Shown here one piece after another: positions 890-56,185 of a stretch of DNA of 64,000 bases. The stretch covers positions 6,418-70,417 of the forward strand of contig DATDYF010000037.1 in NCBI GenBank assembly GCA_035289105.1. The letters are read 5' to 3'. The first letter of the stretch is position 1; each line of letters opens with the position of its first letter. Position numbers and translations under genes: made by a program. The DNA comes from Candidatus Nanoarchaeia archaeon. Its GTDB lineage: Archaea; Nanobdellota; Nanobdellia; Woesearchaeales; JACQSR01. The notes under the pieces are model-generated. The model was not told the origin of the DNA. It searched no databases and saw only the letters and a program-made list of their open reading frames with translations.

Positions 890-891
890 GG

Positions 892-899
892 TTTATATA
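892..899 (+). promoter_or_regulatory. TATA box (tttatata) about 24 nt upstream of the polB ATG. Implies a leaderless transcript.
   Basis: AT-rich octamer at the spacing expected for archaeal promoters. Confidence 0.35.
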
Positions 900-922
900 G
901 AATACCCCTTATTCTCTACCCA

Positions 923-22460: not shown

Positions 22461-22608
22461 TTTTCCACTAGTCTGGGACTAGTGGCAAGCATTGCTTCAT
22501 CATAATTCGAGAGCTGAAAATTCTGAGCATGCTCAAGAACCACCGGTCTTGCAAGGGAGTAATTGCGTTCGCAACATTCCACCGGTCTATGACCGGTGGT
22601 TCTTGACA
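22461..22608. mobile_element. MITE/PATE-like palindromic element, copy 1. Hairpin CCACTAGTC-tgg-GACTAGTGG at the left. Internal box CAAGAACCACCGGTC. Hairpin CCACCGGTC-tat-GACCGGTGG plus GGTTCTTGACA at the right.
   Basis: Same architecture and near-identical right end as the approximately 140-bp insertion at 53812-53953 that disrupts relE. Confidence 0.42.
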
Positions 22609-22661
22609 GAAGTGCAGATTCTGCCACAAATCTTTTTAAACAATCAACGAACAAACTAAGC

Positions 22662-23312
22662 ATGGCCGTTGCACTTTTTGATGTTGATGATACAATAGTA
22701 GATGGGGCTTGTGCAATTATTTATGCCAAATATCTATATAAAAAGAAGGCATTAAACTTGAGTTTTTTGGTAAAAGTCCATTTATACCTTTTGTACTATA
22801 TGCTTTTAGCCAGGCTCAACAGGCTTAATATAAAAAAGATTGAAGAAAAATGGTTTAAAGAACTAAGCAGCAAAATATCTGTTGATGAGGCATTGCATTT
22901 AGGCAGGCAATGTTTTGAAGAAGAAATAAAACCAAAGATATACAGGGAAGTCTTGCCCATAATAAAAAAGCATGCTGAACGCGGAGATAGGATAGTTCTT
23001 ATTTCCAATAGTCCAAAGTTCCTAATTGAGCAGCTGGCTAATCACTTGAATATCAAGGAATTTTATGGAACAGATTTTGTATGTGAAAATAATAGGTTCA
23101 AATCAATAAAACAGCCATATTGCTTTGGGGAAGGGAAGGCTAAAATTATAAAAAAATCAAGTTTAGATTTGAAAAATAGCTATGCATACTCTGACAGCAT
23201 TCATGACCTGCCGCTTCTTGAAATGATTAAATATCCCAATGTCGTAAATCCAGACAGGAGATTGAGGAATATAGCTTTAAAAAGGGAGTGGCCTATCCAC
23301 AATTTCAGGTGA
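22662..23312 (+). CDS. HAD-IB family hydrolase
   Basis: Motif I 'ALFDVDDTI'. Motif IV 'SDSIHDLPLLE'. Start placed at the internal ATG after the palindromic element. Confidence 0.72.
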   Translation: MAVALFDVDDTIVDGACAIIYAKYLYKKKALNLSFLVKVHLYLLYYMLLARLNRLNIKKIEEKWFKELSSKISVDEALHLGRQCFEEEIKPKIYREVLPIIKKHAERGDRIVLISNSPKFLIEQLANHLNIKEFYGTDFVCENNRFKSIKQPYCFGEGKAKIIKKSSLDLKNSYAYSDSIHDLPLLEMIKYPNVVNPDRRLRNIALKREWPIHNFR

Positions 23313-25161: not shown

Positions 25162-25437
25162 ATGGCACGAAAAAACGATTATGACTGGATAAAAATAGTT
25201 GCCTTGTTCATATCGGTTGTTGTGGTGCTAATCATAGCAATAAGCATACGGAATGGGCTAACATCGGATAATATACTTTCAGGGGCAATTACCTTTAAGG
25301 GGCCCAACCCCCATTTATATACTGGACCTAATCCTTTCGGGGAACCTGTTGATATGGAAGCAGCTGTTGCTAGTTATTGTGGCAAAGGTATCTTAGATGC
25401 GGCCCTTGAGGCAAATATTTGTGGAGTGCCACAATGA
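25162..25437 (+). CDS. Small membrane-anchored protein (91 aa). Overlaps the start of the giant gene.
   Basis: Starts 'MARK' within 'aaaatggcacgaaaaa'. The same start context 'aaaatggcacggaaaa' recurs at the giant gene. One TM helix. Confidence 0.42.
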   Translation: MARKNDYDWIKIVALFISVVVVLIIAISIRNGLTSDNILSGAITFKGPNPHLYTGPNPFGEPVDMEAAVASYCGKGILDAALEANICGVPQ

Positions 25438-34400: not shown

Positions 34401-37400
34401 ACATTTACCAACACAGTGCTGCCTGGCGAATCACCTGCAGACTTTGTATTGGACCACACCGTACTTGAGTTTGTTAGTATGGATGAAACCAAGGTTAACC
34501 TTCTATTGATAGAGCTCGGGGAGAAATGCAATGAGCTGTTTATCAATGTAACTGATATCATCAACAAAACAATACCTAACATAGAGCATAAGGGAGTTCC
34601 GCTGTCAGAAATGACTTTATGCGATGATGTTGAAATCAATGGCTTAAGCCTGTGCGATGCCAATTTAGTATTGATAAACGATAGCGACATCCTTGATGTG
34701 GTGCTAAATGGGGATGTTGTAGGCCAGATGGATTTAAGGGCCCTCCTCACAAACCTCGTCTTTGCCTTAACTTATGATGTAGGTGGAGAAACATTCAATG
34801 ATGCGACTGGAACAATAGGGGACATATTGGACCTGAGGGAAGTAAGGCTTGGCTCTTCCAACCTTCTCGATAACGTGCTCCTTTCTTCCAATTCCATAAG
34901 GAATAGCGAAGTTGATGTGCTGACAAGGCTATTTATGGATTACTCAATAGGCACCCTCTCGAAACCGCAAAGGACTCTAACATTCGACAATAAGAAGGCA
35001 ATTGAAGTGTTGGATATAACATTAAACTCTTATGACCAATTCAACCTGGATTGCGCTATAGCGAAGGAGATTCAGAGCAAGGTAGATTTGGAGGGCACTG
35101 AAATTGATTCTCCGATAAGCAAGGTTGAGTTGTGCGATGTGTTTGGCATTCCTACACCCTTAAGCAATGCGCAATTTGGAATCAGCTCCTACTCACCGCC
35201 TATTGGAAGTCTTAAGGAGGGCAGCCTAACGGTTAATCTTAACAGCGTAGAGTTTAGCGATTTCACTCTTGAAACGCTGTATAACCTTACTGAGTTCGAT
35301 TCAGAAACATGTGATATTCACAACAATGAATTTACGGATGCAGCTGTATCAATCAATTGCGAATTAAGCGCAACGGGAAATAACTTCTTTGGCAAGGACC
35401 TTAGCGATGGCGGTGACTTAATCCTTGGGTCGCCTGGCGCATTAGTAGTAGCTGTACCGGATGATGACGATAAAGTTGAAATATCCGGAAACAGGTTTAA
35501 TTTCAACCACATGGGAGGCCCTGGATTGGTGGGCGCAGCAGAAGTTGATGTATCTAAAAACGATTTCGTGGACCCATTGTTTAACGCACAATACATAACT
35601 GATTCCAGGAATTATCTGGAGCAGTTCATTGTAAAAGAGAACCTCGACACTGTAGATATAAACGACAACGTGCTTGTTGATAGAGTTGAAAGCAGGATAA
35701 GCAGGGATGAAGCCAAGGAGCTCGCTAATACCGCTGACAAATACAATCTTGTTGACGACAGGTATGCGGATTTAGCTTCGGATAGGTCAGAAATAGCAGA
35801 GCTTAATAGGGCATTAAGCCAGCTTAATGATATAGACATTGAAAGCATCCAGCTGACAAATGAAATTGCCGATATGTTTGGCATAGATATATCGAGAGTT
35901 GAAACATTGCTTAATAGGGAATTAACACCGATAGATATTTCAAACCTCGATGTGGATAACACCCTAAATATAGAGAGGAATTACTACAGGGGCTTTAACA
36001 GTGTTAGGGCATATTTGCCCGAGCTAATAATCCCGGGAAATCTCAACTTTGCTACAGAGACCTCAGTGTTTATTTATCCAAAGAAGCGCGTATCCTTCGT
36101 TGGCAACGCCATCGTTGACAATCCGCCTATAAAAATAAAATCAAAAGAGGCGATTGACATCTCTAAGGTATTATTGCTGAATAACTTCAGGGCTGGCTGT
36201 GAAATTGATGATGCAGCCGGCATGAGAAACTGCGCCGATGTTGAGTTATCAACCATGGCGGAACCGCCAGAGATTTCAGGTGCAACCGCTGCGTCATTGG
36301 ATAGGGATGAGGATACTGTGCCTAACCATGTTGACAACTGCCCATTCACCCCAAATACTGGCCAGGAAGACACGGACTTTGACACTTTAGGGGATATGTG
36401 CGATAACTGCGATGATTTCAACCCTGACCAGTTTGACAGGGACCTTGATGGGATTGGAGATGTATGTGATAATGATAGGGATGGCGACGGCATTGCCAAT
36501 CCGGCAGATGCCTGCCCAAATGCCTTCGATCCGGGCAATTCAGCGGAAATATGCAGTGGTTGTGTTGATTTGGATGCAGATACATTCTACGCCTTTGATG
36601 CGGATGAATGCACTGGGGGCAATGACTGTGATGACAGCAACGCAGCAGCAAACATCTTTAGATTGGAGGCATGCAATAATCTGGATGACAATTGTAACGG
36701 CCAAACTGACGAATCCGTGCTCCAGAGATGCGGTGCTAGCGATGTAGGAGAATGTACTTTTGGAGTTGAAGCTTGCTCAGCAGGAAGCTACATTGGATGC
36801 ACTGCAATATTGCCCACTGCAGAGGTTTGCGATGGCTTGGATAATGATTGCGATGCAATAGTGGATGAAGGGATTGCTCCACAGCAGTGCGAAGTTACTG
36901 ATGCTGGAGAATGCAGATTTGGATTAAGGAGCTGTGAAGGAGGCGCATTCAGTTCTTGTGTGGGCAACATTGATCCAGTAGCAGAGATATGCGATAGCCT
37001 TGACAATGATTGTGATGGGCAAGCAGATGAAAGCGCTGCAGGCGGAGACCTTACAGAGGTTTGTGGCACAGATGTAGGCGCATGCCAAACTGGCGTGAGA
37101 ACGTGCTCTGCAGGAGGATTTGGAGTATGTGTGGGAGAAATTGCTCCCGTAGGGGAGACATCCTTGGCCTGCAACAACATAGATGATAACTGCAATGGAG
37201 TAATAGACGATGGTTATGATAGGGATGATGATGGCTTTACGAGCTGTGATACGCCAAAACCAGACTGCAACGACAACGATCGGTCAATTAATCCGGATGC
37301 GCCTGAAAGATGCAACGATGGCATAGACAACAACTGTGATGGCAAAGTAGACTTTGGCGATACAGTTAACTGCCCTGCTGCCGATAAGGTATCTGTTGAG

Positions 37401-38453
37401 CTGCACACAATAGACCAGGCAAAAACTAATTATTGCGGTGCAGGAAGGGGCAGCTGCAAGGAGCCGATACAAGGTGCTAGGGTAAAAGTCTTTGACAGGG
37501 ATAACGCTGACTTCCAGAGCGCGTTCACCAAGAATCCAAGCGGCACTTTATACGATGTGGTCTATGAGTCTGACATTGGCTTGATTGGCAGCTGCATTAC
37601 TGACAGCAGCGGCAGTTGCCTTGCAGTGGAGCAAGGTGCTGGCACTTACCTAGTTATAATCAAATATGTAGACGAGGAAACAAACTCAAATATATATGTA
37701 GGCAGGCCAAAGTCCCCATCTGACTTCGTTGATGTGAATGGCGACGGCAAAAGGGATATGGCAACAAAAGAAATACAAATAATTAAAGTCCTCGAAAAGG
37801 GCGGCAGGATTACCTTTAGGGGAGGAAGCAAAATCGTTGTTACAGGCTCAGAATTAGTGGTTATTTCAGCTGATAATGTGATTTGGATGAATGACAGGGA
37901 AGTTTATCCGTTCATATTCACTTCAGATGCTGACTGGACTGTGGATGTCTGCATGCAAATACCTGCGGGCTACCGAATAGAAGGTGTGCTGGATGAGAAT
38001 GGAAACGTAGTAACTACGGCAAATTGCGCGCAAACGTTTGTATCCGGCGAGGCTAAAGTAGTTATTTTCTCAGTAGTTGAAGTAGGCAGTCCGGAGCCTA
38101 ATTTCGGATTCACATTAACTACAAAGCATAATGGAAAAACTCAAACGGCAAAGGGGACAATAAATGGCATAAGGCAAAAAACGAAAACCCAATTGCAAAA
38201 GCAAATATCAACTAAAGTTAAGGCAGCTAAACAGGAAATAGCTAATCGCCAAGCAAAAAGCCAAACAAAAGAGACAGCTTCTCCACTAACCTCCAGAGCA
38301 GTAATCTCCAGGGCAGCAATGAGTTCAGCAACAGCATCAGAGCCTGTTGCGCCAAATGGAAATCTGACTTTCATATTCGCAATTTCTTCTATAGCCCTGC
38401 TTGTGTTATTGCTGGCAGTTATATATATCTACAAGGAAAGGGCAGCAAGATAA
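25419..38453 (+). CDS. Giant secreted cell-surface protein (4344 aa). Contains signal peptide, parallel beta-helix, three CGDGIDND Cys motifs, C-x9-C repeat array, TSP3-like Ca-binding repeats, MopE-like Cys-rich repeats, CarboxypepD_reg-like domain and a C-terminal TM anchor.
   Basis: Single uninterrupted 13035-nt ORF. N-terminal 'KIRILLLVSLITIISAFSASA'. PbH1-like 'ISNNTIYNV/ISNNSLTNV/ISGNSVT'. 'NCGDGIDNDNDGRIDCQDGDC' appears three times. 'DTDFDTLGDMCDNCDDFNPDQFDRDLDGIGDVCDNDRDGDG'. 'CDGLDNDCDAIVDE/CDSLDNDCDGQADE'. 'GARVKVFD..TDSSGSC..GTYLVI'. C-terminus '..LTFIFAISSIALLVLLLAVIYIYKERAAR'. Confidence 0.9.
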   Translation: MWSATMKMARKIRILLLVSLITIISAFSASAADCGNGIKDCECGDTVVADYTFSSDLVCDGSSGPVSGLVVGSDVQLSCAPDVKIECAPGVKDGGSCETGISISASNDISITGCTIIGWDRGVRIGSGSSNINITLNKILHNIQGILVTGAGNNITISYNTVSGNGVESSPGEGGVLGNCGDGIDNDADTQVDCADSECSFDVLCGGPGQGYFGGSIMVLTVHGQDNIQIIGNTINDTFVFENRGAIHIGGSNGNISNLVISNNTIYNVPLFPGISFSFVGIINLTISNNSLTNVGIGLGFGFAAPVENGIISGNSVTCSGLSATLGDIGMMVAGTADVTGNMVNDCDIGIFATFAGLAPGFVPSPISIDANTVTSNFGTGICTDIAFATLENNVISNGIIGIADLLEEFDPGNWQSGITILFNSYAAVQKEICRVRSPLVGGCLQFAEDALAGTVNLDALCGTGEPPFFCPIQFNFIVGGQLYDAPGGVVYVFKESEAQACGIDTSDGVQDYESGLPFGCQAITQTWTCNGIAGGTCSITLGDPGPAGYVAIAFDHPPGSQPPPSVAGAAVFGESLCGGQVDINEFGGETNCGDGIDNDNDGRIDCQDGDCQGSPSCPGCVVTMNWVDENQQPVNAPYGNILLLSYDEINNDCGIDLSQGVTTDIFQVFGNPCITQVQICGLFSGESLSDGQCVSQVNIAAGDQIVAVAIGSFGAEEIQSVQDSCENGLDDDGNNLVDCADPACAPARNCGPSNSLVGGGIFGPQACGGSATIGPLGGPEGCPLTFTAFGENNNPVPDGSYIFTLETAVISTIPYESPQGSGNFILIDPSDGIDFDEWFGLLIAAQNGPPPGLDGGCISPQGQPIPTSGGTCQGSLGELFPGNPNAPHTVVVLYDDFMNPTQIISQNYNFLTCGGQVIIGESGPEVGDCTITYSFVDGQSQPIDAPNGGVVIFSQNALQACVGTFPPPEPGEEDCNAIFNPSDGVMGGEIRCAFTCPGANVGTCPINLFQGTPGIPGGSCTSTILGSASPDYMIAIALDTFSGPPSLFGTATFTDAECGTEIIPGQVTIVAVGGPPPGALQVLVLEGSNPPVSPPGAIVLAFDATQLEAFLGTAVPYDLSPTQMQNLFADLDLGPGAGQSGFIGGCFGEQGPSPTGANGMCDLSLFFGDPTGPVVVLAFLNLDFQAPDPNFIKTRGVYIDGPPPSPITIIFPALNLFVESVTAASPMVSVTAGATDDTIAYLTLFDGSPFAGAIRIETRAVALRVNAPITEVFEVPDSPSTTGGSLHAFFAQVSPINDLFPQDNVKAEVRPSILASVTSSSSTKSNSVRDFSFTTSVDDYVPSAADSLVIIVPDFGKSKADYSAIAEKLAQSEKRVFVIDPVGYKGTTSTVTTSDPLFKGNNLRKWKEKDRLLPISAQLCALIPQLKAETGLASATIIGDGMGGAIVNTPELVCSAQANALVSTGAYCKPVTFSEGGPKSAVPYFNLKDGKTPCELPPSSVPSLVLQGDEEKPQGDLWFFKFKNKKPVTYGLIQGAQDSFITNSFAGTPEFDNAEIYIKSFIEKETGGAYTQLENDLNLRPELVHLLLEDVRANDDAVKPKDTLVSNDGFNLFAIESADLSSTPTGWAVGSVVDIEDVKDDFANFMTNALKISAGEATQKVFVKGSFENPDSGQLVLNYKVLAPSTNPVDSSAKLRLDFKDMQGNSLACIEFHSTNLPVSSTCSFAIAVSSGNDGRIQEISNIPVSEILKSVGAFTTKIFSVDIEISSDSPFYYDDVELLLEEDVLEVNEADFLDLTSHTATFTSPIININAGEQLTSILPLFVAEDGASITADVLDEFDIPIISGIELNSAANLMAFHETLKGLDSLKVRFNLDPGVTLYKYYVVAKPVDVFDTNINGVEVNSLLLDEQGSHSDYSVAFNLNNPGDFDLISAGETLSSDAISFGVGEIYNRVVKTDNSITRSDANNGITETDVSSSSGTVDSFITLFDSSVDTITQDINFGAGCHVEVDDVVMTSAFTTNKLIDIVCPNEEFTLTPFYGASNIELNEVKVDPVDATKDTVGDLDKLEVRDDSALTKTAGESVLEEGYDFSLLQDFLQNDIYQFLLDNGINDSLTQFFKNQLDKSADGVLKRDQVLETAFLGLLGGDNNFSTIMDTEVQFTATGIRLITRTQGNSILSRTIGISSSLNSDRFSIKGPGLAEGKCTSTRAIVLESSLITPKGLSVSDCVDIFVRGESKDLAQDVNSIDQLAKEAVSPRLDKEMVDTVLDSAKDNVTPRRGVISIGGSFDMRDSTISALDDLGFIGISVAGNSFVENSEVLDFQYFQSSAGCNFIGSVFESSAIDLLEEENRNAAENRNSEQLDFARQFHGVSCSSVDTGPANALDQSPSGNYKPSDVATSSVAEATLKIFEMDDPCVLSVAEGGSVCDKVLADLNARDVPITIRSFGEAADQLNLADIAFNQDLTNIKVSEIGKIPSSLSSITFKGIPLDQIMATDILDEINNNQKIDEVNAIRTNIENTGIDNNADELLTEGEEIAQPGLLDANLAPVSYSGLMVETPVEDLDVCLLSLPDGTGICDVRIDQDTIIEDLGITLCGLKRNGVSICNIITDDLNDNPTLDTVGYEAEYQVSKNGDVDVSELSLGDLAIGDRGDSVPFTALDTSINNVKFCDLQLEGVSVCNVVAGKTAVEQATDFTGLDAFDIIQKLENIPDIRESDYTGSFDYLMENLNFCANYAGYIDAELRKENNLDYLRVDKSFKFGNVAKLHIDGMCSVQLDQTSLCDLEGNDVYGPVIQNSAAISDSCNNAAGDFGSCVTNLKELNSCQLTIGGVSVCSVEVSKGLINDQTVYAGFNITKLQINGLCALAYKGISICDTSIDKVFNFTESQGTLEAATGEELISACDLTFNGINLCSGHQFDDEFCDQAKIDGVSVCNSRWDNRLVDDELITEAAQGQVFNDARDGGTFGDEQKQRLLRPSVCDLEINGTTLCDAVALVTFTNTVLPGESPADFVLDHTVLEFVSMDETKVNLLLIELGEKCNELFINVTDIINKTIPNIEHKGVPLSEMTLCDDVEINGLSLCDANLVLINDSDILDVVLNGDVVGQMDLRALLTNLVFALTYDVGGETFNDATGTIGDILDLREVRLGSSNLLDNVLLSSNSIRNSEVDVLTRLFMDYSIGTLSKPQRTLTFDNKKAIEVLDITLNSYDQFNLDCAIAKEIQSKVDLEGTEIDSPISKVELCDVFGIPTPLSNAQFGISSYSPPIGSLKEGSLTVNLNSVEFSDFTLETLYNLTEFDSETCDIHNNEFTDAAVSINCELSATGNNFFGKDLSDGGDLILGSPGALVVAVPDDDDKVEISGNRFNFNHMGGPGLVGAAEVDVSKNDFVDPLFNAQYITDSRNYLEQFIVKENLDTVDINDNVLVDRVESRISRDEAKELANTADKYNLVDDRYADLASDRSEIAELNRALSQLNDIDIESIQLTNEIADMFGIDISRVETLLNRELTPIDISNLDVDNTLNIERNYYRGFNSVRAYLPELIIPGNLNFATETSVFIYPKKRVSFVGNAIVDNPPIKIKSKEAIDISKVLLLNNFRAGCEIDDAAGMRNCADVELSTMAEPPEISGATAASLDRDEDTVPNHVDNCPFTPNTGQEDTDFDTLGDMCDNCDDFNPDQFDRDLDGIGDVCDNDRDGDGIANPADACPNAFDPGNSAEICSGCVDLDADTFYAFDADECTGGNDCDDSNAAANIFRLEACNNLDDNCNGQTDESVLQRCGASDVGECTFGVEACSAGSYIGCTAILPTAEVCDGLDNDCDAIVDEGIAPQQCEVTDAGECRFGLRSCEGGAFSSCVGNIDPVAEICDSLDNDCDGQADESAAGGDLTEVCGTDVGACQTGVRTCSAGGFGVCVGEIAPVGETSLACNNIDDNCNGVIDDGYDRDDDGFTSCDTPKPDCNDNDRSINPDAPERCNDGIDNNCDGKVDFGDTVNCPAADKVSVELHTIDQAKTNYCGAGRGSCKEPIQGARVKVFDRDNADFQSAFTKNPSGTLYDVVYESDIGLIGSCITDSSGSCLAVEQGAGTYLVIIKYVDEETNSNIYVGRPKSPSDFVDVNGDGKRDMATKEIQIIKVLEKGGRITFRGGSKIVVTGSELVVISADNVIWMNDREVYPFIFTSDADWTVDVCMQIPAGYRIEGVLDENGNVVTTANCAQTFVSGEAKVVIFSVVEVGSPEPNFGFTLTTKHNGKTQTAKGTINGIRQKTKTQLQKQISTKVKAAKQEIANRQAKSQTKETASPLTSRAVISRAAMSSATASEPVAPNGNLTFIFAISSIALLVLLLAVIYIYKERAAR
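33108..34670 (+). repeat. Array of about 11 degenerate C-x9-C repeats (consensus C-D-L-x-h-x-G-h-S-h-C-D/N) inside the giant protein
   Basis: VCLLSLPDGTGICD, LCGLKRNGVSICN, FCDLQLEGVSVCN, MCSVQLDQTSLCD, SCQLTIGGVSVCS, LCALAYKGISICD, ACDLTFNGINLCS, FCDQAKIDGVSVCN, VCDLEINGTTLCD, LCDDVEINGLSLCD. Confidence 0.6.
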
Positions 38454-48007: not shown

Positions 48008-48514
48008 ATGCTGAAAGTTATATTTGACACAAACATTTATGGGTTCTTGCTTAAAGAGGTGGATGCTACTGAGATTGAAAGAAAAATAAGCCAGGATAAG
48101 GAATTTGTTGTATATGGCTATCCATTGATAAGGAAGGAGATTCGAGACATACCAAAAGTCACTAAGCTCAGCAAAAAGACTAGAATTCTTTTGTTGGGCC
48201 TTTACGACAGAATAACTGGCAACCATTTTCTTGAACATTCCATAAGGATTACCAGTCTAGCTAGAAAATACTACGATTACTACAGAAAACTTGGGGGAGT
48301 CTATGGGTGGGATACATCTGTTCGAGTTGATTTTATGATAGTTGCATGTGCAAGTTTTCATGGGCTTGATATTGTATACTCTGCAGATAGCAAAACACTT
48401 CTTGGAAAGCATGCTTTGAAAGCTTATAAGCACATAAACCTAAGGGAGAATTGCAGAACACCCAATTTTCTGGAATATGAAGACCTGCTTGGAAAACTCA
48501 GAAGCCTAGTTTAA
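48008..48514 (+). CDS. PIN domain protein (VapC-like nuclease)
   Basis: 'VIFDTNIY' N-terminal acidic motif. Later conserved D residues. 168 aa. Confidence 0.65.
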   Translation: MLKVIFDTNIYGFLLKEVDATEIERKISQDKEFVVYGYPLIRKEIRDIPKVTKLSKKTRILLLGLYDRITGNHFLEHSIRITSLARKYYDYYRKLGGVYGWDTSVRVDFMIVACASFHGLDIVYSADSKTLLGKHALKAYKHINLRENCRTPNFLEYEDLLGKLRSLV

Positions 48515-50492: not shown

Positions 50493-50517
50493 AGCTCCGG
50501 AAATCTTCCGGTTTTTT
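50493..50517 (+). terminator. Conserved hairpin AGCTCCGGAAATCTTCCGG (CCGGAA-atc-TTCCGG) plus T6, copy 1
   Basis: Begins 4 nt after the tatD stop. The same 17-mer recurs at 53375 and 54146. Confidence 0.5.
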
Positions 50518-50556
50518 CTGGGAAGAGTTTATATTTATGAAAGTATAACCAACCTT

Positions 50557-51057
50557 ATGAGCGAAATGATCTATGTTTTGATGGATACAGACACGTACAT
50601 TGAGAGCTGTCTAAGCTCAGGCAATCCTTATAAGTTCAAGCATACCCAAGAAACCACTTTTGGAAAGCGTATTGACTTAGGCCTTTGGAAGGAAAAAACT
50701 TTTAGAGAGTTATTTGAGTATCTAACTGATCCAGCCCCCGATACTCTAAACCCTAGAGGTTATAGCGACCTAGAGTCTAAATGCATATTGGAGGTAAAAA
50801 GAAAGGTAGAAGATCTCCTTTCACACAGGGATGATGATTACTTCTTTCCGTTCTGTTTCTATTTTTCCCATATAAAAGAAACAGAAAAGGGGATACAATA
50901 TTTCCACCATTGCGTGGAATTTGACGATAAAGTCAAGAAGTATTTTCCTGATGTTTTAGTCTCTAAGGATTTCGAGGTGGAAGAAAAGGGCGGAGGCCTA
51001 TCACGTGTAAATGCAAAATACGCCAGGCTGGGACTGACACTGAAAATTCTAGGGTAA
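50557..51057 (+). CDS. Hypothetical protein
   Basis: 166-aa ORF with no recognised family. Confidence 0.45.
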   Translation: MSEMIYVLMDTDTYIESCLSSGNPYKFKHTQETTFGKRIDLGLWKEKTFRELFEYLTDPAPDTLNPRGYSDLESKCILEVKRKVEDLLSHRDDDYFFPFCFYFSHIKETEKGIQYFHHCVEFDDKVKKYFPDVLVSKDFEVEEKGGGLSRVNAKYARLGLTLKILG

Positions 51058-51082
51058 ATGAGATTAGGCCATTTGTTTTCTT

Positions 51083-51898
51083 ATGTTCAAAACAAATGAA
51101 ACATTTAAATACGCTCATTGCTGTAATCTGTATATGGACCCCATTATTGAAAAAATTAAACGAGATCCAAAAGAGAGAGATATAATATGCTCGTCTATCG
51201 AAACTTGGAGAAATCATTGGTTCAAGTGCTCGCATGAAGAATCCCTCAAAGGGATAGACGGAAAAGTATACCAAGCGCATAATTGGATTTATGGGCGGGA
51301 AGTTAGGGTTTTTCGAATGGCCGAGGTTGATAAAAAGGTGGTTTCTTTTGTTGCTGCAGGAATTCAGGATTTAATCGGCCAGATAGGGTTGGGTTTCTCG
51401 GTTGCGGACTATGGCGTTGAAAGAAATGCGACTGAAGAGGTCATGCAGGCTATTCAGCCAGATGGCAGGGTCAGTGCTAGTAAACTGGGACAAATCTTAA
51501 TTGCGGAAAGGTTCAGAAACCCGCAATATGGGGGAAGGCCTCATGCAGATGTAATAATAACCGACAGGTATTTGGTAAAGGAAACTGAAACGGACGACTG
51601 GGGCCAAAGCCAATTCAGATACGGTTACATAGTTCTTGGGCTTGCTGGAGATAGGCAAAAAGGGCTTGAATTCATCAGGCGTCTTGCAAAACATGAATCA
51701 GGGCACCTATTTAAGGGAGGGCATTACCAACATCATAATGAGCCACCCCTGACTATTCCAGGTTATAGGGACGTTTCGGATTGCAATATGTTATGGCGAG
51801 CCTCAACCGAATATACCTGTGAGAGGTGCGCTGATGCTATAACCTATTTTTGGAGAGGGCTTGAGGCAAAAACTGGAGAAAAATTTTTTAAGAAATAA
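51083..51898 (+). CDS. Archaemetzincin-like zinc metalloprotease (M54-like)
   Basis: 'HESGHLFKGGHYQHH' (HExxHxxGxxH). Downstream Cys4 'SDCNM..YTCERCAD'. Confidence 0.6.
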   Translation: MFKTNETFKYAHCCNLYMDPIIEKIKRDPKERDIICSSIETWRNHWFKCSHEESLKGIDGKVYQAHNWIYGREVRVFRMAEVDKKVVSFVAAGIQDLIGQIGLGFSVADYGVERNATEEVMQAIQPDGRVSASKLGQILIAERFRNPQYGGRPHADVIITDRYLVKETETDDWGQSQFRYGYIVLGLAGDRQKGLEFIRRLAKHESGHLFKGGHYQHHNEPPLTIPGYRDVSDCNMLWRASTEYTCERCADAITYFWRGLEAKTGEKFFKK

Positions 51899-51913
51899 AT
51901 TATAGAAGAAATT

Positions 51914-52834
51914 TCACTTTACCTTGTTCAAAATCTCCCTGAGCACACCCGCAGAATTGTGCAATGCCGCCTGCTCTTCTTCGCTTAAGGGGAGCTGTAT
52001 CCTTCTTTGGATTCCGCCTTTGCCAATTGCGCAGGGAACGCTCATGCATAAGTCTCCTTCATCATAGTAGTTTTCTATAAAGGTTGAGACCGGAAATACC
52101 CTTTTCTCGTCATGAAGGATTGACTGGACAATTTCTGCGATTACGAGGGCAATTGCAAAATAGGTTGCTCCCTTTCTGGAAATTATCTCATATGCAGCAT
52201 TCTTTGTTTTCTTGAAGTCATCATCCAGCTTTGCCTTGTCATACGCCCAAGTATCTTTGATGTTTAACCCTGCTATCGTAGCTCCGCTTAAGACCGGGAA
52301 TTCCGAATCACCATGCTCACCAAGTATATATGCATGAACACTCTGGGGGCTGACATTGAAATGCTCTGCAAGGTAATACCTATATCTAGCAGTGTCAAGT
52401 GTTGTTCCAGTTCCAAAAACTCTTTCGCGCGGAAAACCTGAATACTTCAATGCAAGGTAAGTCATTATATCAACAGGGTTTGAAACAATAAGAAATATGC
52501 TGTTTGGTGAGGATTTTGCAATCTTAGGTATCATATCATTGAAAATCCCAGAATTTTTTGATACCAAATCAAGCCTCGTTTCGCCTGGATTCTGGTGGGC
52601 ACCAGCAGTTATTACCACTATTTCAGCGCCTGCACAGATGTCATAGGAATCTCCGAATGTTATTTTTACGCCAGGACTGAACTGCAGGCCGTGCTCCAAA
52701 TCCATGGCATGCCCTTCTGCCTTTTCCCTGTGGGGGTCGAATATGGCAATTTCAGAGGCAGTTCTTTTTATGAACAGTGCATAGGCAGTAGTGGAGCCTA
52801 CAAAGCCCGAACCTATGATAGCTACCTTTGACAT
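51914..52834 (-). CDS. mdh: L-lactate/malate dehydrogenase
   Basis: 'KVAIIGSGFVGSTTAY' Rossmann motif. 'GEHGDS' catalytic region. 306 aa. Confidence 0.88.
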   Translation of the reverse strand: MSKVAIIGSGFVGSTTAYALFIKRTASEIAIFDPHREKAEGHAMDLEHGLQFSPGVKITFGDSYDICAGAEIVVITAGAHQNPGETRLDLVSKNSGIFNDMIPKIAKSSPNSIFLIVSNPVDIMTYLALKYSGFPRERVFGTGTTLDTARYRYYLAEHFNVSPQSVHAYILGEHGDSEFPVLSGATIAGLNIKDTWAYDKAKLDDDFKKTKNAAYEIISRKGATYFAIALVIAEIVQSILHDEKRVFPVSTFIENYYDEGDLCMSVPCAIGKGGIQRRIQLPLSEEEQAALHNSAGVLREILNKVK

Positions 52835-52947
52835 TTTTCCTCTTTTTCTGGATTTATAGCTGCTTGTTTTTAAATCTCTTTTGGTTCCGGAAATTCTCTG
52901 GTTTTTCTCGGGTAAAATATATAAAGAGCATTTTTAACCTAACTGCC

Positions 52948-53376
52948 ATGTTAAGCGGCAAAGAGTCAGAGGTGCTTTTGTACCTCCGGGAGGATGCAAG
53001 AAAAAGCCTTGCGGAGATATCAAGGGAGTCTGGAATTCCTGTAGCAACGGTGCATGGCATTGTCAGGAGGCTGAAAAAGAGGGGAATCATAATCAAATAT
53101 GCGTCTCTCATGGATTTTCAAAGGATTGGATATAGCTTAAGGGTAATGATGGCTATAAAGACTGATAGAAAAGCTGAGGTAATGCGGCATTTGTCAAGGC
53201 ACCCAAATGTAAACTCGCTTTCCAAGGCTGCTTCCGGGTGCGATTTCTGCATTGATGCCGTTTTCAGGCATTGCGGGGAGCTGGAACTATTCAAGGAAGG
53301 GCTTCAGAAGTTCAATATAACCTATATCGGAGAGCATAACATGGTTGAGGAGATAAAGGCAGAATCCTCTGTTTAG
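52948..53376 (+). CDS. Lrp/AsnC-family transcriptional regulator
   Basis: HTH 'ARKSLAEISRESGIPVATVHGIVRRLKKRGII' plus RAM domain. Start set at an internal ATG. Confidence 0.78.
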   Translation: MLSGKESEVLLYLREDARKSLAEISRESGIPVATVHGIVRRLKKRGIIIKYASLMDFQRIGYSLRVMMAIKTDRKAEVMRHLSRHPNVNSLSKAASGCDFCIDAVFRHCGELELFKEGLQKFNITYIGEHNMVEEIKAESSV

Positions 53377-53393
53377 CTCCGGAAATCTTCCGG
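53375..53393 (+). terminator. Conserved hairpin AGCTCCGGAAATCTTCCGG, copy 2 (overlaps the TAG stop of the Lrp gene)
   Basis: 17-mer identical to copy 1. Confidence 0.45.
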
Positions 53394-53464
53394 AATTTAT
53401 GGGTTAAGGTTTTTTAAGGGGAGAAGTTTTCATTTCAGCCATGGAAAAGCCTTATACATACCTA

Positions 53465-53482
53465 AGTATACTCTTGTATACT
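53465..53482 (+). promoter_or_regulatory. Palindrome AGTATAC-tctt-GTATACT upstream of the relB-like antitoxin. Candidate autoregulatory operator.
   Basis: Perfect 7-bp inverted repeat 13 nt before the SD 'gaggtgag'. Confidence 0.3.
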
Positions 53483-53494
53483 GAGGTGAGCAAT

Positions 53495-53734
53495 ATGGCT
53501 GCAACTACGATTAAAATTTACGAAGAAACAAAACACGACTTGGACGAGTTTAGGGAATACAAAAACGAAAGTTACGACGAGGTCATTAAAAAAATCGTTT
53601 ACATCGCAAAGGCCTCAAAAAAAGAGCCTAAGCTGAGCAAAGAAGCCATGGAATCCATAGAAAAGGCCCGGGCAAGAATAAGGGCAGGCAGATTTATTAC
53701 CGAAGAGGAAGCCAGGAAGAGGCTTGGATTTTAA
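53495..53734 (+). CDS. RelB/ribbon-helix-helix-type antitoxin
   Basis: 79-aa ORF MAATTIKIYEETKHDL.. with C-terminus 'ARARIRAGRFITEEEARKRLGF'. Its stop overlaps the ATG of the relE fragment (TAATG). Confidence 0.55.
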   Translation: MAATTIKIYEETKHDLDEFREYKNESYDEVIKKIVYIAKASKKEPKLSKEAMESIEKARARIRAGRFITEEEARKRLGF

Positions 53735-54133
53735 TGTACGCGGTGTTTTTTGATGATAAGGCAATCGAATTTCTCGAAAAACTACCTAAAGAGTTAAGCA
53801 AAAGGATTTATACAATGAAATACCACCATTCTATCTGAATGGCGGTATGAGTTGTGCTCAAAAACCACCAGCTAAGGAATGGCGGTATTTCAAGTGTCAA
53901 AAACTCCGTATCGCTATATAATCATGCCACCAGTCTATTGACTGGTGGTTTTTGACAAGAAGACAGTTTCAGCCAAAGAGAATCCTTTTCATTTTTTTGA
54001 GCGGCTTGAAGGGCGGGGTGATTACAAGCTAAGAGTCGGAGACTACCGGGTAATAGCAGATATCAATCAAAAGGAAAGGATAATTGCAGTAACCCTTATA
54101 GGCCACAGGAAAAATATCTATCAGAAACTTTGA
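53734..54133 (+). pseudogene. relE: RelE/ParE-family toxin gene split by an approximately 140-bp insertion
   Basis: N-terminal fragment (53734-53838) 'MYAVFFDDKAIEFLEKLPKELSKRIY'. C-terminal fragment (53945-54133, different frame) 'ENPFHFFERLEGRGDYKLRVGDYRVIADINQKERIIAVTLIGHRKNIY'. Confidence 0.65.
53812..53953. mobile_element. MITE/PATE-like palindromic element, copy 2, inserted in relE. Hairpin TACCACCATTC-tatct-GAATGGCGGTA at the left. Internal box TCAAAAACCACCAG. Hairpin CCACCAGTC-tatt-GACTGGTGG at the right.
   Basis: Splits the relE ORF with a frame change. Shares hairpin and box consensus and the GGTTyTTGACA end with copy 1 at 22461-22608. Exact termini are uncertain. Confidence 0.45.
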
Positions 54134-54145
54134 GTTGAATTTTGT

Positions 54146-54167
54146 CTCCGGAAATCTTCCGGTTTTT
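54146..54167 (+). terminator. Conserved hairpin CTCCGGAAATCTTCCGG plus T5, copy 3
   Basis: Begins 13 nt after the relE fragment stop. Confidence 0.45.
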
Positions 54168-54202
54168 GAGGGGAAACGCTTATTAAAAGATTTTTCCTTC
54201 CT

Positions 54203-54796
54203 TTGTGCATGGATGAAGTGCCCTATATAGGAAAGCAGAAACGCGATTACAGGTTAGGCAAAGGACTGCTGATTGGTGGAACTGCACTGGCAATTATTGG
54301 CGCAATTGCTTACCATGACCTCAAGAAGGGCTATGACAGCGAAAATGCAGGCAGTTCTTCTGTTATCATAAGGGAAGCCCATGAATACAGGGAAAAGAGT
54401 CTTGACGAAAGGTTGAGGGACGCCCTGAACGAGCTTAACAGCAATCCAGAGGGCATGGAAAGGAATTATGGACTGCTTGCAGAAACCGTGGAGGGAAGAT
54501 TGGAGGGCCATCCTGAATATGCAAATAGGCTGATTGTTTCCTCTCTTTCTGTTTTAAAGGACAATATCAGCCCGGAAGCATATGTAGCGATGTTCGAAGA
54601 GATAAAAAAGAAGGTAGAGGAGAACCCCGAATTGATGGACCATTTCGGTGAGAACGCAAATTCGTACATGGAGAAAAAAATCACCGATAAGCTTTATGGG
54701 AAGATGGGAAATGCCCTGCGTGACAGTGCAACAAGGCTAAAAGAAAAGGGAAGGAATCTGCTTGATGCCCTAACCAAGCCTAGGGAGGCAAAGTAA
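54203..54796 (+). CDS. Hypothetical membrane-anchored protein
   Basis: N-terminal TM 'LLIGGTALAIIGAIAY' followed by a helical soluble domain. 197 aa. Confidence 0.45.
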   Translation: MCMDEVPYIGKQKRDYRLGKGLLIGGTALAIIGAIAYHDLKKGYDSENAGSSSVIIREAHEYREKSLDERLRDALNELNSNPEGMERNYGLLAETVEGRLEGHPEYANRLIVSSLSVLKDNISPEAYVAMFEEIKKKVEENPELMDHFGENANSYMEKKITDKLYGKMGNALRDSATRLKEKGRNLLDALTKPREAK

Positions 54797-54797
54797 A

Positions 54798-55073
54798 ATG
54801 TGCTGGGTTTATGTTAAGCGGTTTGTCTTCTATGGCGGGATTGCCGCAATAATCGCTGCGCCCATTGCTTACAAATACGGCTACAATAACGGCAAATTAG
54901 ACTGCACAGTTGCGCAGTTTAATGAATCGAAACTGGAAAAAGTCGCTGACAACCAGTTCGGGGTTACAAATCCGGATGACAATAGGAGATATACCATTGA
55001 TTTTCACAACAAGACCATAATTCCAAATCAGAAGAAACTTGAGGACATTTTCAGGAAGCAAGAGGTCAAATGA
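54798..55073 (+). CDS. Hypothetical small membrane-anchored protein
   Basis: 91-aa ORF with an N-terminal TM. Starts 2 nt after the upstream stop. Confidence 0.42.
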   Translation: MCWVYVKRFVFYGGIAAIIAAPIAYKYGYNNGKLDCTVAQFNESKLEKVADNQFGVTNPDDNRRYTIDFHNKTIIPNQKKLEDIFRKQEVK

Positions 55074-55099
55074 GGCAATGACAACCATTAACTGGGGGG

Positions 55100-56185
55100 A
55101 TGAAAATGGAAGATCCAATAATAAAAAGGATAAAAGAAGAAGGGAGAAGTAAAAGGGCAAAAGCACCAGAGCAAAGAACTTTGACTGGAAGCATAGACCA
55201 GATTTTTTTGCCGGCAAGGGAAAATTCAGGCCAGTTGCAGAAGTTATACATGATTGGCAATCCGATCCATACGCTGAACCCCGATCAAACACCTTACGGA
55301 AGGCCCGGGCTGAAGGAGCTTGAGATTGCTGTGGAGAGGGTGAATGAGGGGCAAAAACAGCTGGAGGTCATAAAAAAGATAGAACGCTCTGAACTCTACA
55401 AGGGCATGATAACACTTTCTGACGGCCTCTTGGGGTTATTTGGAAGAAGGCCTGATAGGTTTAATGACATCTATGGGCTGTTTGAGCACCAGCAGCATAA
55501 TGTCAGGGACTTAAATCACATACTGGCAGCCATGGGGCGCTCTTACGATGAGAATGTAAAGAATACAAGGGCAGACCTAGACGGCCTTTTGGTTAAGACT
55601 CAAAGGGAGATAGAAAGAAGAAAAGTTATGGAGCAGGATGAAATTCCTCCAGAGATTAGAAGATATGACAATGCCATTTCAGCCCTTAAGGACAAAGACA
55701 GGTACAAAGACCCCTCAAGTTATTTTAGCGCTTTGCAAGAGGTTATTGATGCAAAAAGGGTGAGCAGGCAGAAAAGGTTTGAGTTCATCACCACCTCGAT
55801 GGGTGAAGAGCATCATTCTCTGCAGATAGACAAATTAATGATGCAGGAGGAGCTGTTTGAGACGATGCTTTACAGGGTTATGGAAATGGCGTTCAAGACC
55901 GAGCTTTATCAGGAAACCCTTGACCGCGACATTCCGCTCTGGAGATCTACGAGAGACCTCTTCGAGGCGGTTAAGGCAGTAAGCGGCTCCATGCTAATCC
56001 TTGAGAGCTACAACAGGGACCTTAACGAGACATACCTGAGGGCAATATCTGAGATTACAAGAATGGTTGATGGCCACAGAGGCGCAAGGCTCATAGAAAG
56101 CGCAAACCAAGACATGAGAAGGATGATAACTGATGTGAATGCAAGCTTTTACAGGAATGCTTCGCAATATGAGCAGAGAAAGTGA
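55100..56185 (+). CDS. Hypothetical protein
   Basis: 361-aa charged helical protein with no recognised family. Confidence 0.5.
   Translation: MKMEDPIIKRIKEEGRSKRAKAPEQRTLTGSIDQIFLPARENSGQLQKLYMIGNPIHTLNPDQTPYGRPGLKELEIAVERVNEGQKQLEVIKKIERSELYKGMITLSDGLLGLFGRRPDRFNDIYGLFEHQQHNVRDLNHILAAMGRSYDENVKNTRADLDGLLVKTQREIERRKVMEQDEIPPEIRRYDNAISALKDKDRYKDPSSYFSALQEVIDAKRVSRQKRFEFITTSMGEEHHSLQIDKLMMQEELFETMLYRVMEMAFKTELYQETLDRDIPLWRSTRDLFEAVKAVSGSMLILESYNRDLNETYLRAISEITRMVDGHRGARLIESANQDMRRMITDVNASFYRNASQYEQRK

What the first reader, a model, noticed from the sequence alone, without database searches (positions are those of the whole stretch)
50493..54167. Identical 17-nt hairpin (CTCCGGAAATCTTCCGG) plus T-tract re-used after three different genes
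Copies at 50493, 53375 and 54146 are perfect over 17 nt. Each forms a 6-bp stem with a 3-nt loop. Two are followed by T5-6, and each starts 0 to 13 nt after a plus-strand stop codon. Archaeal terminators are usually simple U-tracts. A conserved hairpin repeated verbatim suggests a dedicated termination or RNA-stability element, a protein-binding site, or a small dispersed repeat.
Basis: seen in the sequence. Interest (0 to 1): 0.5.

Follow-up and report, generated by a model that had tools for sequence, protein, structure and literature searches.

The report
Operator palindrome of an archaeal Lrp regulator
The repeated "hairpin" is most likely not a terminator but the DNA docking site of a feast/famine (Lrp/AsnC) transcription factor encoded in the middle of the cluster, placed a fixed 16 bases upstream of the TATA box of the next gene; it is an ordinary kind of regulatory site in an unstudied archaeon.

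Summary

The terminator reading does not hold. Every copy, plus a fourth degenerate copy at 52885-52901, ends exactly 16 nt before a TATA-like box. The next + strand gene starts about 30 nt after that box.

About 26 further instances in other archaeal contigs have the same layout. Roughly a third lie between divergent genes, so no stop codon precedes them. Variant copies carry non-compensatory arm changes.

All four window copies flank the window's only Lrp/AsnC gene (52948-53376), whose closest solved relative is FL11.

In 8 of 11 homologue contexts, a CCGGAA-N3-TTCCGG palindrome lies within 150 nt upstream of the regulator's own transcription unit, often at -61. Chance per locus is at most 0.004.

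FL11's published optimal site, CCGAAA-WWW-TTTCGG, differs by one base per arm.

Best reading: an Lrp-type operator or upstream activating site that controls the regulator's own gene and three neighbouring promoters, one of them a toxin-antitoxin module. This is a new member of a known kind. A secondary terminator role is not excluded.

The parts
50495..50511 (+). Site W1: perfect 17-bp palindrome cT-CCGGAA-ATC-TTCCGG, 5 nt after the TatD stop codon. It is followed by T6 at 50512-50517.
50528..50535 (+). TATA-like box TTTATATT, 16 nt after W1, preceded by the BRE-like GGGAAGAG. The ATG of the 166-aa gene follows at 50557.
50557..51898 (+). Predicted target unit 1: a 166-aa ORF (50557-51057) and a 271-aa ORF (51083-51898). 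Neither has a Pfam match.
52885..52901 (+). Site W4: degenerate copy TTCCGGAAATTCTCTGG, with non-compensatory changes in the right arm. It lies between the divergent LDH gene (51914-52834, - strand) and the regulator gene. The 15-bp core starts at -61 from the regulator ATG.
52918..52925 (+). TATA box TATATAAA of the regulator gene, 16 nt after W4.
52948..53376 (+). Lrp/AsnC (feast/famine regulatory protein) family regulator, 142 aa, with a winged HTH and a RAM-type C-terminal domain. It is the only family member in the window and the proposed binder of the palindrome.
53377..53393 (+). Site W2: perfect copy starting immediately after the regulator's TAG stop. No T-tract follows (AATTTA).
53410..53417 (+). 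TATA-like box TTTTTTAA, 16 nt after W2. The ATG at 53441 is 31 nt downstream of the start of the box.
53441..54133 (+). Predicted target unit 2: a toxin-antitoxin module. The antitoxin carries DUF7557 (53441-53734). The ParE/RelE-type toxin starts at 53734 and is split by an insertion of about 140 nt; its C-terminal ORF is 53945-54133.
54146..54162 (+). Site W3: perfect copy 12 nt after the toxin's TGA stop, followed by T5.
54179..54186 (+). TATA box CTTATTAA, 16 nt after W3, preceded by the BRE-like GGGAAACG. The ATG follows at 54209.
54209..56185 (+). Predicted target unit 3: tightly packed + strand ORFs of 195 aa (membrane protein), 91 aa and 361 aa. None has a Pfam match.

Best explanation
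The 17-mer is a double-stranded DNA palindrome, T-CCGGAA-N3-TTCCGG-A, that serves as the operator or upstream activating site of the Lrp/AsnC (FFRP) regulator encoded at 52948-53376.

A regulator dimer would bind each site. Each site ends 16 bp upstream of the TATA box, about 9 bp upstream of the BRE, and is centred near -54 from the start codon of apparently leaderless genes. From that position the dimer would modulate TBP/TFB recruitment.

Activation in the manner of Ptr2, LysM or Ss-LrpB is the most likely direction. Repression or dual control at high occupancy remains possible.

Four promoters would be controlled:
- the regulator's own promoter, through the weak site W4
- the 166-aa/271-aa unit
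- the DUF7557-ParE toxin-antitoxin module
- the 195-aa membrane-protein unit

What is shown and what is inferred:
- Shown: the sequence, its clustering around the regulator gene, the fixed spacing to TATA, conservation of the same palindrome at homologues' own promoters, and similarity to the FL11 optimum.
- Inferred: that this particular protein binds the site, the sign of regulation, the effector, and that transcripts are leaderless.
For: 1. Fixed promoter geometry. In 17 of 30 tabulated instances from the window and other contigs, the palindrome ends exactly 16 nt before the best TATA-like octamer. The offset is 14-20 nt in 27 of 30. The distance from palindrome start to ATG is 59-62 nt in about half of them.

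2. Independence from upstream stop codons. The upstream gene is divergent for W4, L073, L173, L084/L190, L186a, L133u, L219, L223, L225 and L226.

3. Sequence rather than structure. Variant copies change one arm only:
- W4, CCGGAAATTCTCTGG
- L186c, CCGTAAATCTTCCGG
- L084b, CCGGAAATCCTCCGG
- L133u, CCGGAAACTTTTCGA
The central triplet varies freely: ATC, TCC, ACT/AGT, GAC, GAT.

4. Clustering. The window's only four copies lie within 3.7 kb around its only Lrp homologue.

5. Phylogenetic footprint. In 8 of 11 contexts, a match with at most 2 mismatches lies within 150 nt upstream of the first start codon of the regulator's own transcription unit.
- Positions: window -61; L225 -101 and -61; L226 -112, -101 and -61; L227 -60; L220 -133; L223 operon -61; L133 and L219 -111.
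- Composition-matched chance is 0.0005-0.004 per locus, giving a binomial tail of 2e-17. The loci represent only about 5 lineages.

6. Family. The closest solved structures are FL11/PH1519, PH0140 and LrpA. Homologues carry HTH_24 plus AsnC_trans_reg.

7. Published specificity. FFRPs bind abcdeWWWe'd'c'b'a' sites. The FL11 SELEX optimum, CCGAAA[AAT/ATT]TTTCGG, differs from CCGGAA-N3-TTCCGG by one base per arm (PMC2715240).

8. Published architecture.
- Activating archaeal Lrp proteins use a dimer site just upstream of the BRE at a highly constrained position.
- Most Lrp members autoregulate (PMC2995911).
- Ss-LrpB binds three sites in its own control region (PMC4046817). This resembles the two or three sites in L223, L225 and L226.

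9. Contact residues. Homologues that have the palindrome carry Ser at FL11 position 36; the window protein has Ala. The paper pairs Ser36 with G/A at base b, and here b is G. The three homologues without the palindrome have Thr36, and two of them show ATATTGCA-type repeats instead.
Against: - No binding data exist; the assignment rests on comparative genomics.
- The window protein has Ala, not Ser, at position 36. Its nearest homologue, P0002 (48% identity, Thr36), has only a half-site upstream. The residue-to-base argument is therefore suggestive only.
- The central triplet ATC (or ACT) contains a G:C pair, whereas characterised FFRP sites prefer WWW.
- The perfect sites are the target sites, while the autoregulatory site in the window is the weakest.
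- Most element-bearing contigs from other genomes are too short to show whether they encode the regulator.
- Many instances were retrieved with a pattern that forced the CT prefix and a TTTT suffix. Conservation of those flanks is partly by construction.
- The T-tract that follows many copies is not explained by this model.
Confidence: 0.7

Rival explanations
1. Dual-function intergenic module. The DNA palindrome is a regulator site. In addition, when transcribed from a co-directional upstream gene, the RNA hairpin plus U-tract terminates or stabilises that transcript just before the next promoter.
For: - W1 and W3 are followed by T6 and T5 and lie 5 and 12 nt after stop codons.
- Oligo-T is the usual archaeal termination signal (established knowledge).
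- L075, L203, L220 and L225-2281 also lie 5-13 nt after stops.
- A T4-6 tract follows the palindrome in all five genome hits that were found with the bare 17-mer and have this architecture.
Against: - The T-tract is just as frequent when the upstream gene is divergent. Among instances not forced to carry TTTT, it is present in 3 of 7 co-directional cases and 3 of 8 divergent cases.
- W2 has no T-tract.
- The hairpin is weak, at -7 to -9 kcal/mol.
- There are no compensatory stem changes.
- In these compact genomes the whole intergenic space is about 65 nt, so proximity to a stop codon is expected anyway.
Confidence: 0.15
2. The palindrome is a transcription-factor site, but for a different DNA-binding protein. 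Candidates are another wHTH regulator or the roughly 315-aa AbrB/MazE-domain proteins that often neighbour these Lrp genes. The Lrp gene would then be only one of that factor's targets.
For: - The site upstream of the regulator could equally reflect control by another factor.
- AbrB/MazE-domain genes of about 315 aa recur near the Lrp homologues.
- Many targets are toxin-antitoxin modules whose antitoxins are themselves DNA binders.
Against: - The site has the length, arm size and 3-bp centre of FFRP sites and is nearly the FL11 optimum.
- No AbrB/MazE-PhoU-like gene was seen next to the four window sites.
- The antitoxins downstream belong to unrelated families (DUF7557, VapB, AbrB-like), so none of them can explain a shared site.
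- Presence of the palindrome tracks residue 36 of the Lrp homologues.
Confidence: 0.1
3. The element is a small mobile or recombination-related repeat: REP/MITE-like, or a cassette boundary that moves toxin-antitoxin and other accessory genes together with their promoter.
For: - Identical 17-mers occur in genomes of very different GC content, from 34% to 59%.
- Downstream genes are often toxin-antitoxin or PIN modules and small accessory genes: L075 VapBC, L186 AbrB-like/PIN, L084 with two PIN genes, L047 PIN, and the window's ParE.
- In the window and in L186, a toxin-antitoxin module is flanked by two copies.
- The spacers between palindrome and TATA are also similar between genomes, for example W1 versus L186a with 14 of 16 identical.
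Against: - There are no terminal inverted repeats or target duplications, and similarity stops at the promoter module.
- The fixed distance to TATA and to the start codon fits a promoter, not an insertion.
- The same palindrome sits at housekeeping-type promoters: PLP-decarboxylase, the Ldh-DAHP synthase operon and an M20 peptidase.
- There is no attC-like R'/R'' core.
- No recombinase gene is adjacent.
Confidence: 0.05

Closest known systems
FL11 (PH1519) of Pyrococcus OT3 and its operator
   Same: - It is the closest solved relative of the window regulator (E about 1e-11).
- Its site is a 15-bp palindrome with 6-bp arms and a 3-bp centre. The SELEX optimum CCGAAA[AAT/ATT]TTTCGG differs from CCGGAA-N3-TTCCGG by one base per arm (PMC2715240).
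- It autoregulates its own promoter.
- Contact residues Leu24, Thr37 and His39 are shared.
   Different: - Overall identity is only about 20-26%.
- Residues 34-36 differ (P-V-A versus A-E-S).
- The centre here contains a G:C pair.
- According to the review read, FL11 as a lysine-bound octamer covers long stretches of DNA. Here the single sites lie upstream of BRE/TATA, an activator-like position.
- The effector is unknown.
Ptr2 (M. jannaschii), LysM and Ss-LrpB (Sulfolobus): activating archaeal Lrp proteins
   Same: - A dimer site lies just upstream of the BRE at a tightly constrained distance.
- Additional upstream sites can be present.
- The regulator's own control region carries sites; Ss-LrpB has three (PMC2995911, PMC4046817).
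- L223, L225 and L226 carry two or three palindromes, with starts 11 and 40 bp apart.
   Different: - The half-site sequence differs; Ss-LrpB uses TTGCAA-AAT-TTGCAA.
- Activation is inferred here from position only.
- Toxin-antitoxin modules do not appear among the Lrp targets mentioned in the papers read here.
Archaeal oligo-T terminators and bacterial-type intrinsic terminators
   Same: A short GC-containing hairpin is followed by T5-6 close to a stop codon, in two of the three window copies.
   Different: - Position is tied to the downstream TATA box rather than the upstream stop.
- The element is present between divergent genes.
- There are no compensatory stem changes.
- Verbatim sequence conservation across genomes is not expected of terminators.

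Membership tests
Operator of an archaeal Lrp/AsnC (FFRP) regulator | A 13-15-bp palindrome of the form abcdeWWWe'd'c'b'a': 5-6-bp arms around a 3-bp centre that is not contacted and is A/T-rich. | tested here: met
   The site is CCGGAA-N3-TTCCGG, with constant arms and a variable centre (ATC, ACT/AGT, TCC, GAC, GAT). One deviation: the centre usually has one G:C pair instead of WWW (PMC2715240).
Operator of an archaeal Lrp/AsnC (FFRP) regulator | A cognate regulator with an N-terminal wHTH and a C-terminal RAM domain is encoded in the genome, typically next to its sites. | tested here: met
   The 52948-53376 product matches HTH_24. Its homologues match HTH_24 plus AsnC_trans_reg. The best PDB matches are FL11, PH0140 and LrpA. 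It is the only homologue in the window and is flanked by all four sites.
Operator of an archaeal Lrp/AsnC (FFRP) regulator | The site lies in the regulator's own control region (autoregulation), and this is conserved among orthologues. | tested here: met
   This holds in 8 of 11 homologue contexts, at -60/-61 from the first start codon of the unit in five of them (window, L223 operon, L225, L226, L227). Chance is at most 0.004 per locus.
Operator of an archaeal Lrp/AsnC (FFRP) regulator | The position relative to BRE/TATA is constrained (activator class: a site a few bp upstream of the BRE). | tested here: met
   The offset from palindrome end to TATA is 16 nt in 17 of 30 instances and 14-20 nt in 27 of 30. 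The review statement was read.
Operator of an archaeal Lrp/AsnC (FFRP) regulator | The recognition residues fit the published amino-acid-to-base contact pattern. | tested here: inconclusive
   - Leu24, Thr37 and a hydrophobic residue at 35 fit a=C and d,e=A.
- Ser36 in most palindrome-bearing homologues fits b=G, but the window protein has Ala36.
- Base c=G with His/Tyr39 is not covered by the paper.
Operator of an archaeal Lrp/AsnC (FFRP) regulator | Direct, sequence-specific binding of the protein to the site. | not testable with these tools
   This needs EMSA, footprinting or SELEX with the purified protein.
Transcription terminator (hairpin plus U-tract) or 3'-end stability element | It lies downstream of a co-directional gene's stop codon wherever it occurs. 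| tested here: not met
   About a third of instances lie between divergent genes: W4, L073, L173, L084/L190, L186a, L133u, L219, L223, L225 and L226.
Transcription terminator (hairpin plus U-tract) or 3'-end stability element | The stem is maintained by compensatory changes while the sequence drifts. | tested here: not met
   The arms are conserved verbatim. Where they vary, the change is on one arm only. No both-side change was seen.
Transcription terminator (hairpin plus U-tract) or 3'-end stability element | A U-tract follows immediately and transcript 3' ends map there. | tested here: inconclusive
   A T5-6 tract follows W1 and W3 but not W2. The T-tract is equally common with divergent upstream genes.
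Dispersed mobile repeat (REP/MITE) or cassette recombination site | The repeat unit has defined ends (terminal inverted repeats or target duplications, or an attC-type R'/R'' core) and its placement does not depend on promoter geometry. | tested here: not met
   Similarity is confined to the palindrome-BRE-TATA module. The offset to TATA and ATG is fixed. No GTTRRRY-type core is visible on inspection.

The most novel reading that the evidence does not exclude
The palindrome, T-tract, BRE and TATA form a conserved, portable promoter module. Through it a feast/famine (Lrp-type) regulator would directly control toxin-antitoxin and PIN-toxin genes and small membrane proteins across DPANN and other uncultivated archaea. 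That would couple nutrient sensing to toxin expression. The same module would double as a terminator or insulator for the upstream gene.
Probability: 0.15. Interest if true: 0.55.

Novelty: new member of a known kind. Interest (0 to 1): 0.3.

Why it matters
- The finding turns an apparent "conserved archaeal terminator hairpin" into a predicted regulon for an uncharacterised Lrp/AsnC regulator of Woesearchaeota-like groundwater archaea, organisms for which essentially no transcription regulation is known.
- The prediction is concrete and testable in vitro: a 142-aa protein, a 17-bp site, four promoters, and fixed 16-bp spacing to TATA.
- The recurrent link to VapBC, PIN and ParE modules hints that feast/famine regulators may control toxin-antitoxin systems in these reduced genomes.
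- It is also a caution for sequence-only scans. In compact archaeal genomes a palindrome right after a stop codon is just as close to the next promoter.

Tried and rejected
- Scanning genome contigs with the bare 17-mer returned mostly chance hits. Only L041, L073, L075, L084 and L047 had the promoter architecture.
- The viral-contig scan gave 3 hits without the architecture.
- Rfam gave no match in 49-56 kb, even at E<=1.
- A profile (nhmmer) search found no weaker copies elsewhere in the window, so this is not a general promoter feature. Most window promoters have TATA boxes without the palindrome.
- The first homology search with the regulator alone found only 2 proteins. A 3-sequence profile was needed.
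- L218, L222 and L228 have no palindrome upstream of the regulator homologue. Their proteins carry Thr36, so they are read as paralogues with another specificity.
- An integron attC or cassette reading and a REP/MITE reading were considered and set aside (see rivals).
- An NrpR-type operator (GGAA-N6-TTCC, recalled from memory) was considered and dropped, because the spacing differs and the Lrp evidence is direct.
- A blastn-short search with the insertion in the ParE gene found no second copy. A regex plus a more permissive blastn then found a related copy near 22.5 kb.

Full report
**Observation.**
- The 17-mer CTCCGGAAATCTTCCGG occurs exactly three times in the 64-kb window, at 50495-50511, 53377-53393 and 54146-54162, all on the + strand.
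- None of 100 dinucleotide shuffles reaches three matches, even with two mismatches allowed.
The stem (CCGGAA/TTCCGG), the loop (ATC), the T6 and T5 tracts after copies 1 and 3, and the gaps of 5, 0 and 12 nt after stop codons are all correct.
- As RNA the hairpin is modest: -7.1 to -9.3 kcal/mol, z-scores -1.0 to -3.3.
- A looser search shows a fourth, degenerate copy, TTCCGGAAATTCTCTGG at 52885-52901.
- A profile built from all instances finds nothing else in the window. Four copies therefore lie within 3.7 kb and none in the other 60 kb.

**Anatomy.**
- Each of the four copies ends exactly 16 nt before a TATA-like octamer: TTTATATT, TATATAAA, TTTTTTAA and CTTATTAA.
- Each octamer is preceded by a purine-rich BRE-like stretch. 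About 30 nt after the start of the octamer comes the ATG of the next + strand gene.
- Most other genes in the window have a similar TATA box about 30 nt before the ATG, which suggests leaderless mRNAs. They have no palindrome.
- The fourth copy lies between the divergently transcribed lactate/malate dehydrogenase gene (51914-52834, - strand) and a 142-aa gene (52948-53376, + strand). No co-directional stop codon precedes it.

**Related sequences.**
- A genome-collection scan with the bare 17-mer gave mainly chance hits. Five hits had the same layout:
  - two contigs of a Candidatus Woesearchaeota MAG (L041, L073)
  - L075
  - two MAGs labelled Methanosarcinales with 56-59% GC (L084, L047)
- A metagenome scan that left the loop free added L145, L173, L148/L185, L190, L186 (three copies), L133/L167 and L203.
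- Across 30 tabulated instances, the offset from palindrome end to the best TATA-like octamer is 16 nt in 17 and 14-20 nt in 27. The distance from palindrome start to the ATG is 59-62 nt in about half.
- The loop varies (ATC, TCC, ACT/AGT, GAC, GAT), while the arms are constant.
- Where arms vary, only one arm changes, which weakens the stem without compensation: W4, L186c CCGTAAATCTTCCGG, L084b CCGGAAATCCTCCGG, L133u CCGGAAACTTTTCGA.
- In about a third of instances the upstream gene is divergent. Examples:
  - L073, a Rossmann-fold gene
  - L173, a MazG-like gene
  - L084/L190, where the element is 6 nt from a divergent start codon
  - L186a
  - the regulator promoters described in the next section
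- These facts argue against a terminator or RNA-stability element as the primary function. They point to a double-stranded DNA site read by a protein at a fixed place in the downstream promoter.

**Which protein.**
- The 142-aa gene flanked by the four copies has a winged HTH (HTH_24). Its homologues also match AsnC_trans_reg, and several are annotated as Woesearchaeota Lrp/AsnC regulators.
- Its best matches among solved structures are the Pyrococcus feast/famine proteins FL11/PH1519 and PH0140, followed by LrpA.
- It is the only family member in the window.
- I fetched the genomic contexts of ten homologues sharing 32-48% identity. I then searched for CCGGAANNNTTCCGG with up to two mismatches.
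- In 8 of 11 contexts, counting the window, at least one match lies within 150 nt upstream of the first start codon of the regulator's own transcription unit:
  - window, -61
  - L225, -101 and -61
  - L226, -112, -101 and -61
  - L227, -60
  - L220, -133
  - L223, -61 from the first gene of an Ldh-APH-DAHP synthase-Lrp operon
  - L133 and L219, -111 from an NYN-Lrp operon
- Composition-matched chance per locus is 0.0005-0.004, and the binomial tail is 2e-17.
- The loci are not all independent and represent about five lineages. The surrounding intergenic sequence has diverged, so this is a real phylogenetic footprint.
- All ten matches with at most one mismatch in these loci and the window are intergenic. 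The instances tabulated lie a short distance upstream of a TATA-like box.
- In L223, L225 and L226, two or three palindromes lie between divergent promoters, with starts 11 and 40 bp apart.

**Comparison with the literature.**
- Yokoyama et al. 2009 (PMC2715240) showed by SELEX that archaeal FFRPs bind palindromes of the form abcdeWWWe'd'c'b'a'.
- FL11's optimum is CCGAAA[AAT/ATT]TTTCGG. The present site, CCGGAA-N3-TTCCGG, has the same length and arm/centre organisation and differs by one base per arm (position c, A to G).
- In FL11 numbering, the contact residues 24, 34-37 and 39 compare as follows:

| Protein | 24 | 34 | 35 | 36 | 37 | 39 |
|---|---|---|---|---|---|---|
| Window protein | L | P | V | A | T | H |
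| FL11 | L | A | E | S | T | H |

- Homologues whose promoters carry the palindrome have Ser36, which the paper pairs with G or A at base b (here G).
- The three homologues without the palindrome (P0002, P0044, P0041) have Thr36. Two of their promoters show ATATTGCA-type repeats instead.
- This co-variation is suggestive, not decisive. The window protein has Ala36, and its nearest relative, P0002, has Thr36 with only a half-site upstream.
- The review by Peeters and Charlier (PMC2995911) makes two relevant statements:
  - Activating archaeal Lrp proteins (Ptr2, LysM, Ss-LrpB) use a dimer site just upstream of the BRE, at a highly constrained position, and act through TBP.
  - Most Lrp members autoregulate.
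- Ss-LrpB binds three sites in its own control region (PMC4046817).
- The architecture found here matches that description.

**Mechanism proposed.**
- A dimer of the regulator binds each 17-bp palindrome, which is centred about 54 bp upstream of the start codon and presumed start site.
- From there it modulates recruitment of TBP/TFB at the adjacent BRE/TATA.
- Given the position, activation is the most likely outcome. Cooperative occupation of several sites could give repression or a switch, as described for Ss-LrpB.
- Predicted targets in the window are:
  - the regulator's own gene, through the weak site W4
  - the 166-aa/271-aa unit
  - a toxin-antitoxin module, a DUF7557 antitoxin plus a ParE/RelE-type toxin that is interrupted
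  - a unit starting with a 195-aa membrane protein
- In other genomes the element precedes VapB-VapC(PIN) modules (L075, L186), solitary PIN genes (two in L084, one in L047), homologous small membrane proteins (L145, L203) and an M20 peptidase (L133).
- At the regulator loci it faces PLP-decarboxylase, serine-dehydratase and Ldh/DAHP-synthase genes. That is the amino-acid-related neighbourhood expected for a feast/famine regulator.
- The effector and the sign of regulation are unknown.

**What remains open.**
- The T4-6 tract that follows many copies is not explained.
  - Among instances not forced by my search pattern, it is about as frequent with divergent upstream genes (3 of 8) as with co-directional ones (3 of 7).
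  - So it is not simply the upstream gene's terminator. For W1 and W3, though, a secondary terminator role cannot be excluded without 3'-end data.
- The CT prefix and TTTT suffix were part of my scan patterns, so their conservation is partly by construction. The TATA spacing and BRE were not part of any pattern.
- Binding by a different factor (about 0.1) and a mobile-cassette origin of the module (about 0.05) are not excluded.
- The six near-identical strain contigs show no presence/absence variation.

**Verdict.**
The terminator interpretation is not supported.
- The element is best explained as the operator or upstream activating site of an FL11-like Lrp/AsnC regulator. This makes it a new member of a well-known kind.
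- Interest is modest. The prediction is concrete and testable for an uncultivated archaeal lineage, and it carries a possible, unproven link between feast/famine regulation and toxin-antitoxin modules.

Noticed in passing
window 53734-54133 (insertion about 53815-53955) and window about 22530-22615: The ParE/RelE-type toxin gene downstream of W2 is split by an insertion of about 140 nt. The insertion carries inverted repeats TCAAAAACCACCAG...CTGGTGGTTTTTGA. A related copy, TCAAGAACCACCGGTC...GACCGGTGGTTCTTGA, lies upstream of the gene at 22662. The two hairpins differ by a compensatory pair (CCACCAG/CTGGTGG versus CCACCGG/CCGGTGG). This looks like a small MITE-like element that has inactivated the toxin.
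   Followed up: partly
L222 about 9900-10000; L228 about 9900-9960: Lrp homologues with Thr at FL11 position 36 (P0044, P0041) lack the CCGGAA palindrome. Instead they have repeated ATATTGCA/TGCAATAT motifs upstream, which may be the operator of a sister paralogue clade.
   Followed up: partly
L218 511-1458, L219 19119-20045, L220 12475-13383, L222 8877-9818 and 18820-19737, L223 11375-12331, L225 11444-12388, L226 10455-12363, L228 7636-8595: Genes for proteins of about 305-320 aa with a weak MazE/AbrB-type domain hit recur within a few kb of the Lrp homologues in Woesearchaeota-like contigs. PhoU-like hits appear on some adjacent genes. Several additional AsnC-type paralogues are also present. 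This looks like a conserved cluster of regulator genes.
   Followed up: no
L084 5029-5486 and 6308-6770; L047 about 240-1100 (- strand): In two GC-rich MAGs labelled Methanosarcinales, paralogous PIN-domain genes are each preceded by the same palindrome-TATA module. In L047 the second copy is only a weak profile hit (E=0.12) and was not inspected. The element therefore reaches beyond low-GC DPANN genomes, or those bins are mislabelled.
   Followed up: partly
L145 377-769 (- strand) and L203 (- strand, downstream of 208-224): Small membrane proteins with similar N-termini (...LGILTVWLIFKVTGVI... and ...MGVFTLWLILKVTGVI...) in two different metagenomes both carry the element upstream. This may be a conserved regulon member.
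   Followed up: no
window 25434-38453: A single + strand ORF of 4339 aa occupies 13 kb of the window. It was not examined.
   Followed up: no
window 48008-48514: A 168-aa ORF starting MLKVIFDTNIYGF... looks like a PIN-type toxin without the palindrome upstream. In near-identical strain contigs this region is called differently: 45-aa plus 107-aa genes in L212 and L214, but 168 aa in L215. That suggests strain-level disruption.
   Followed up: no
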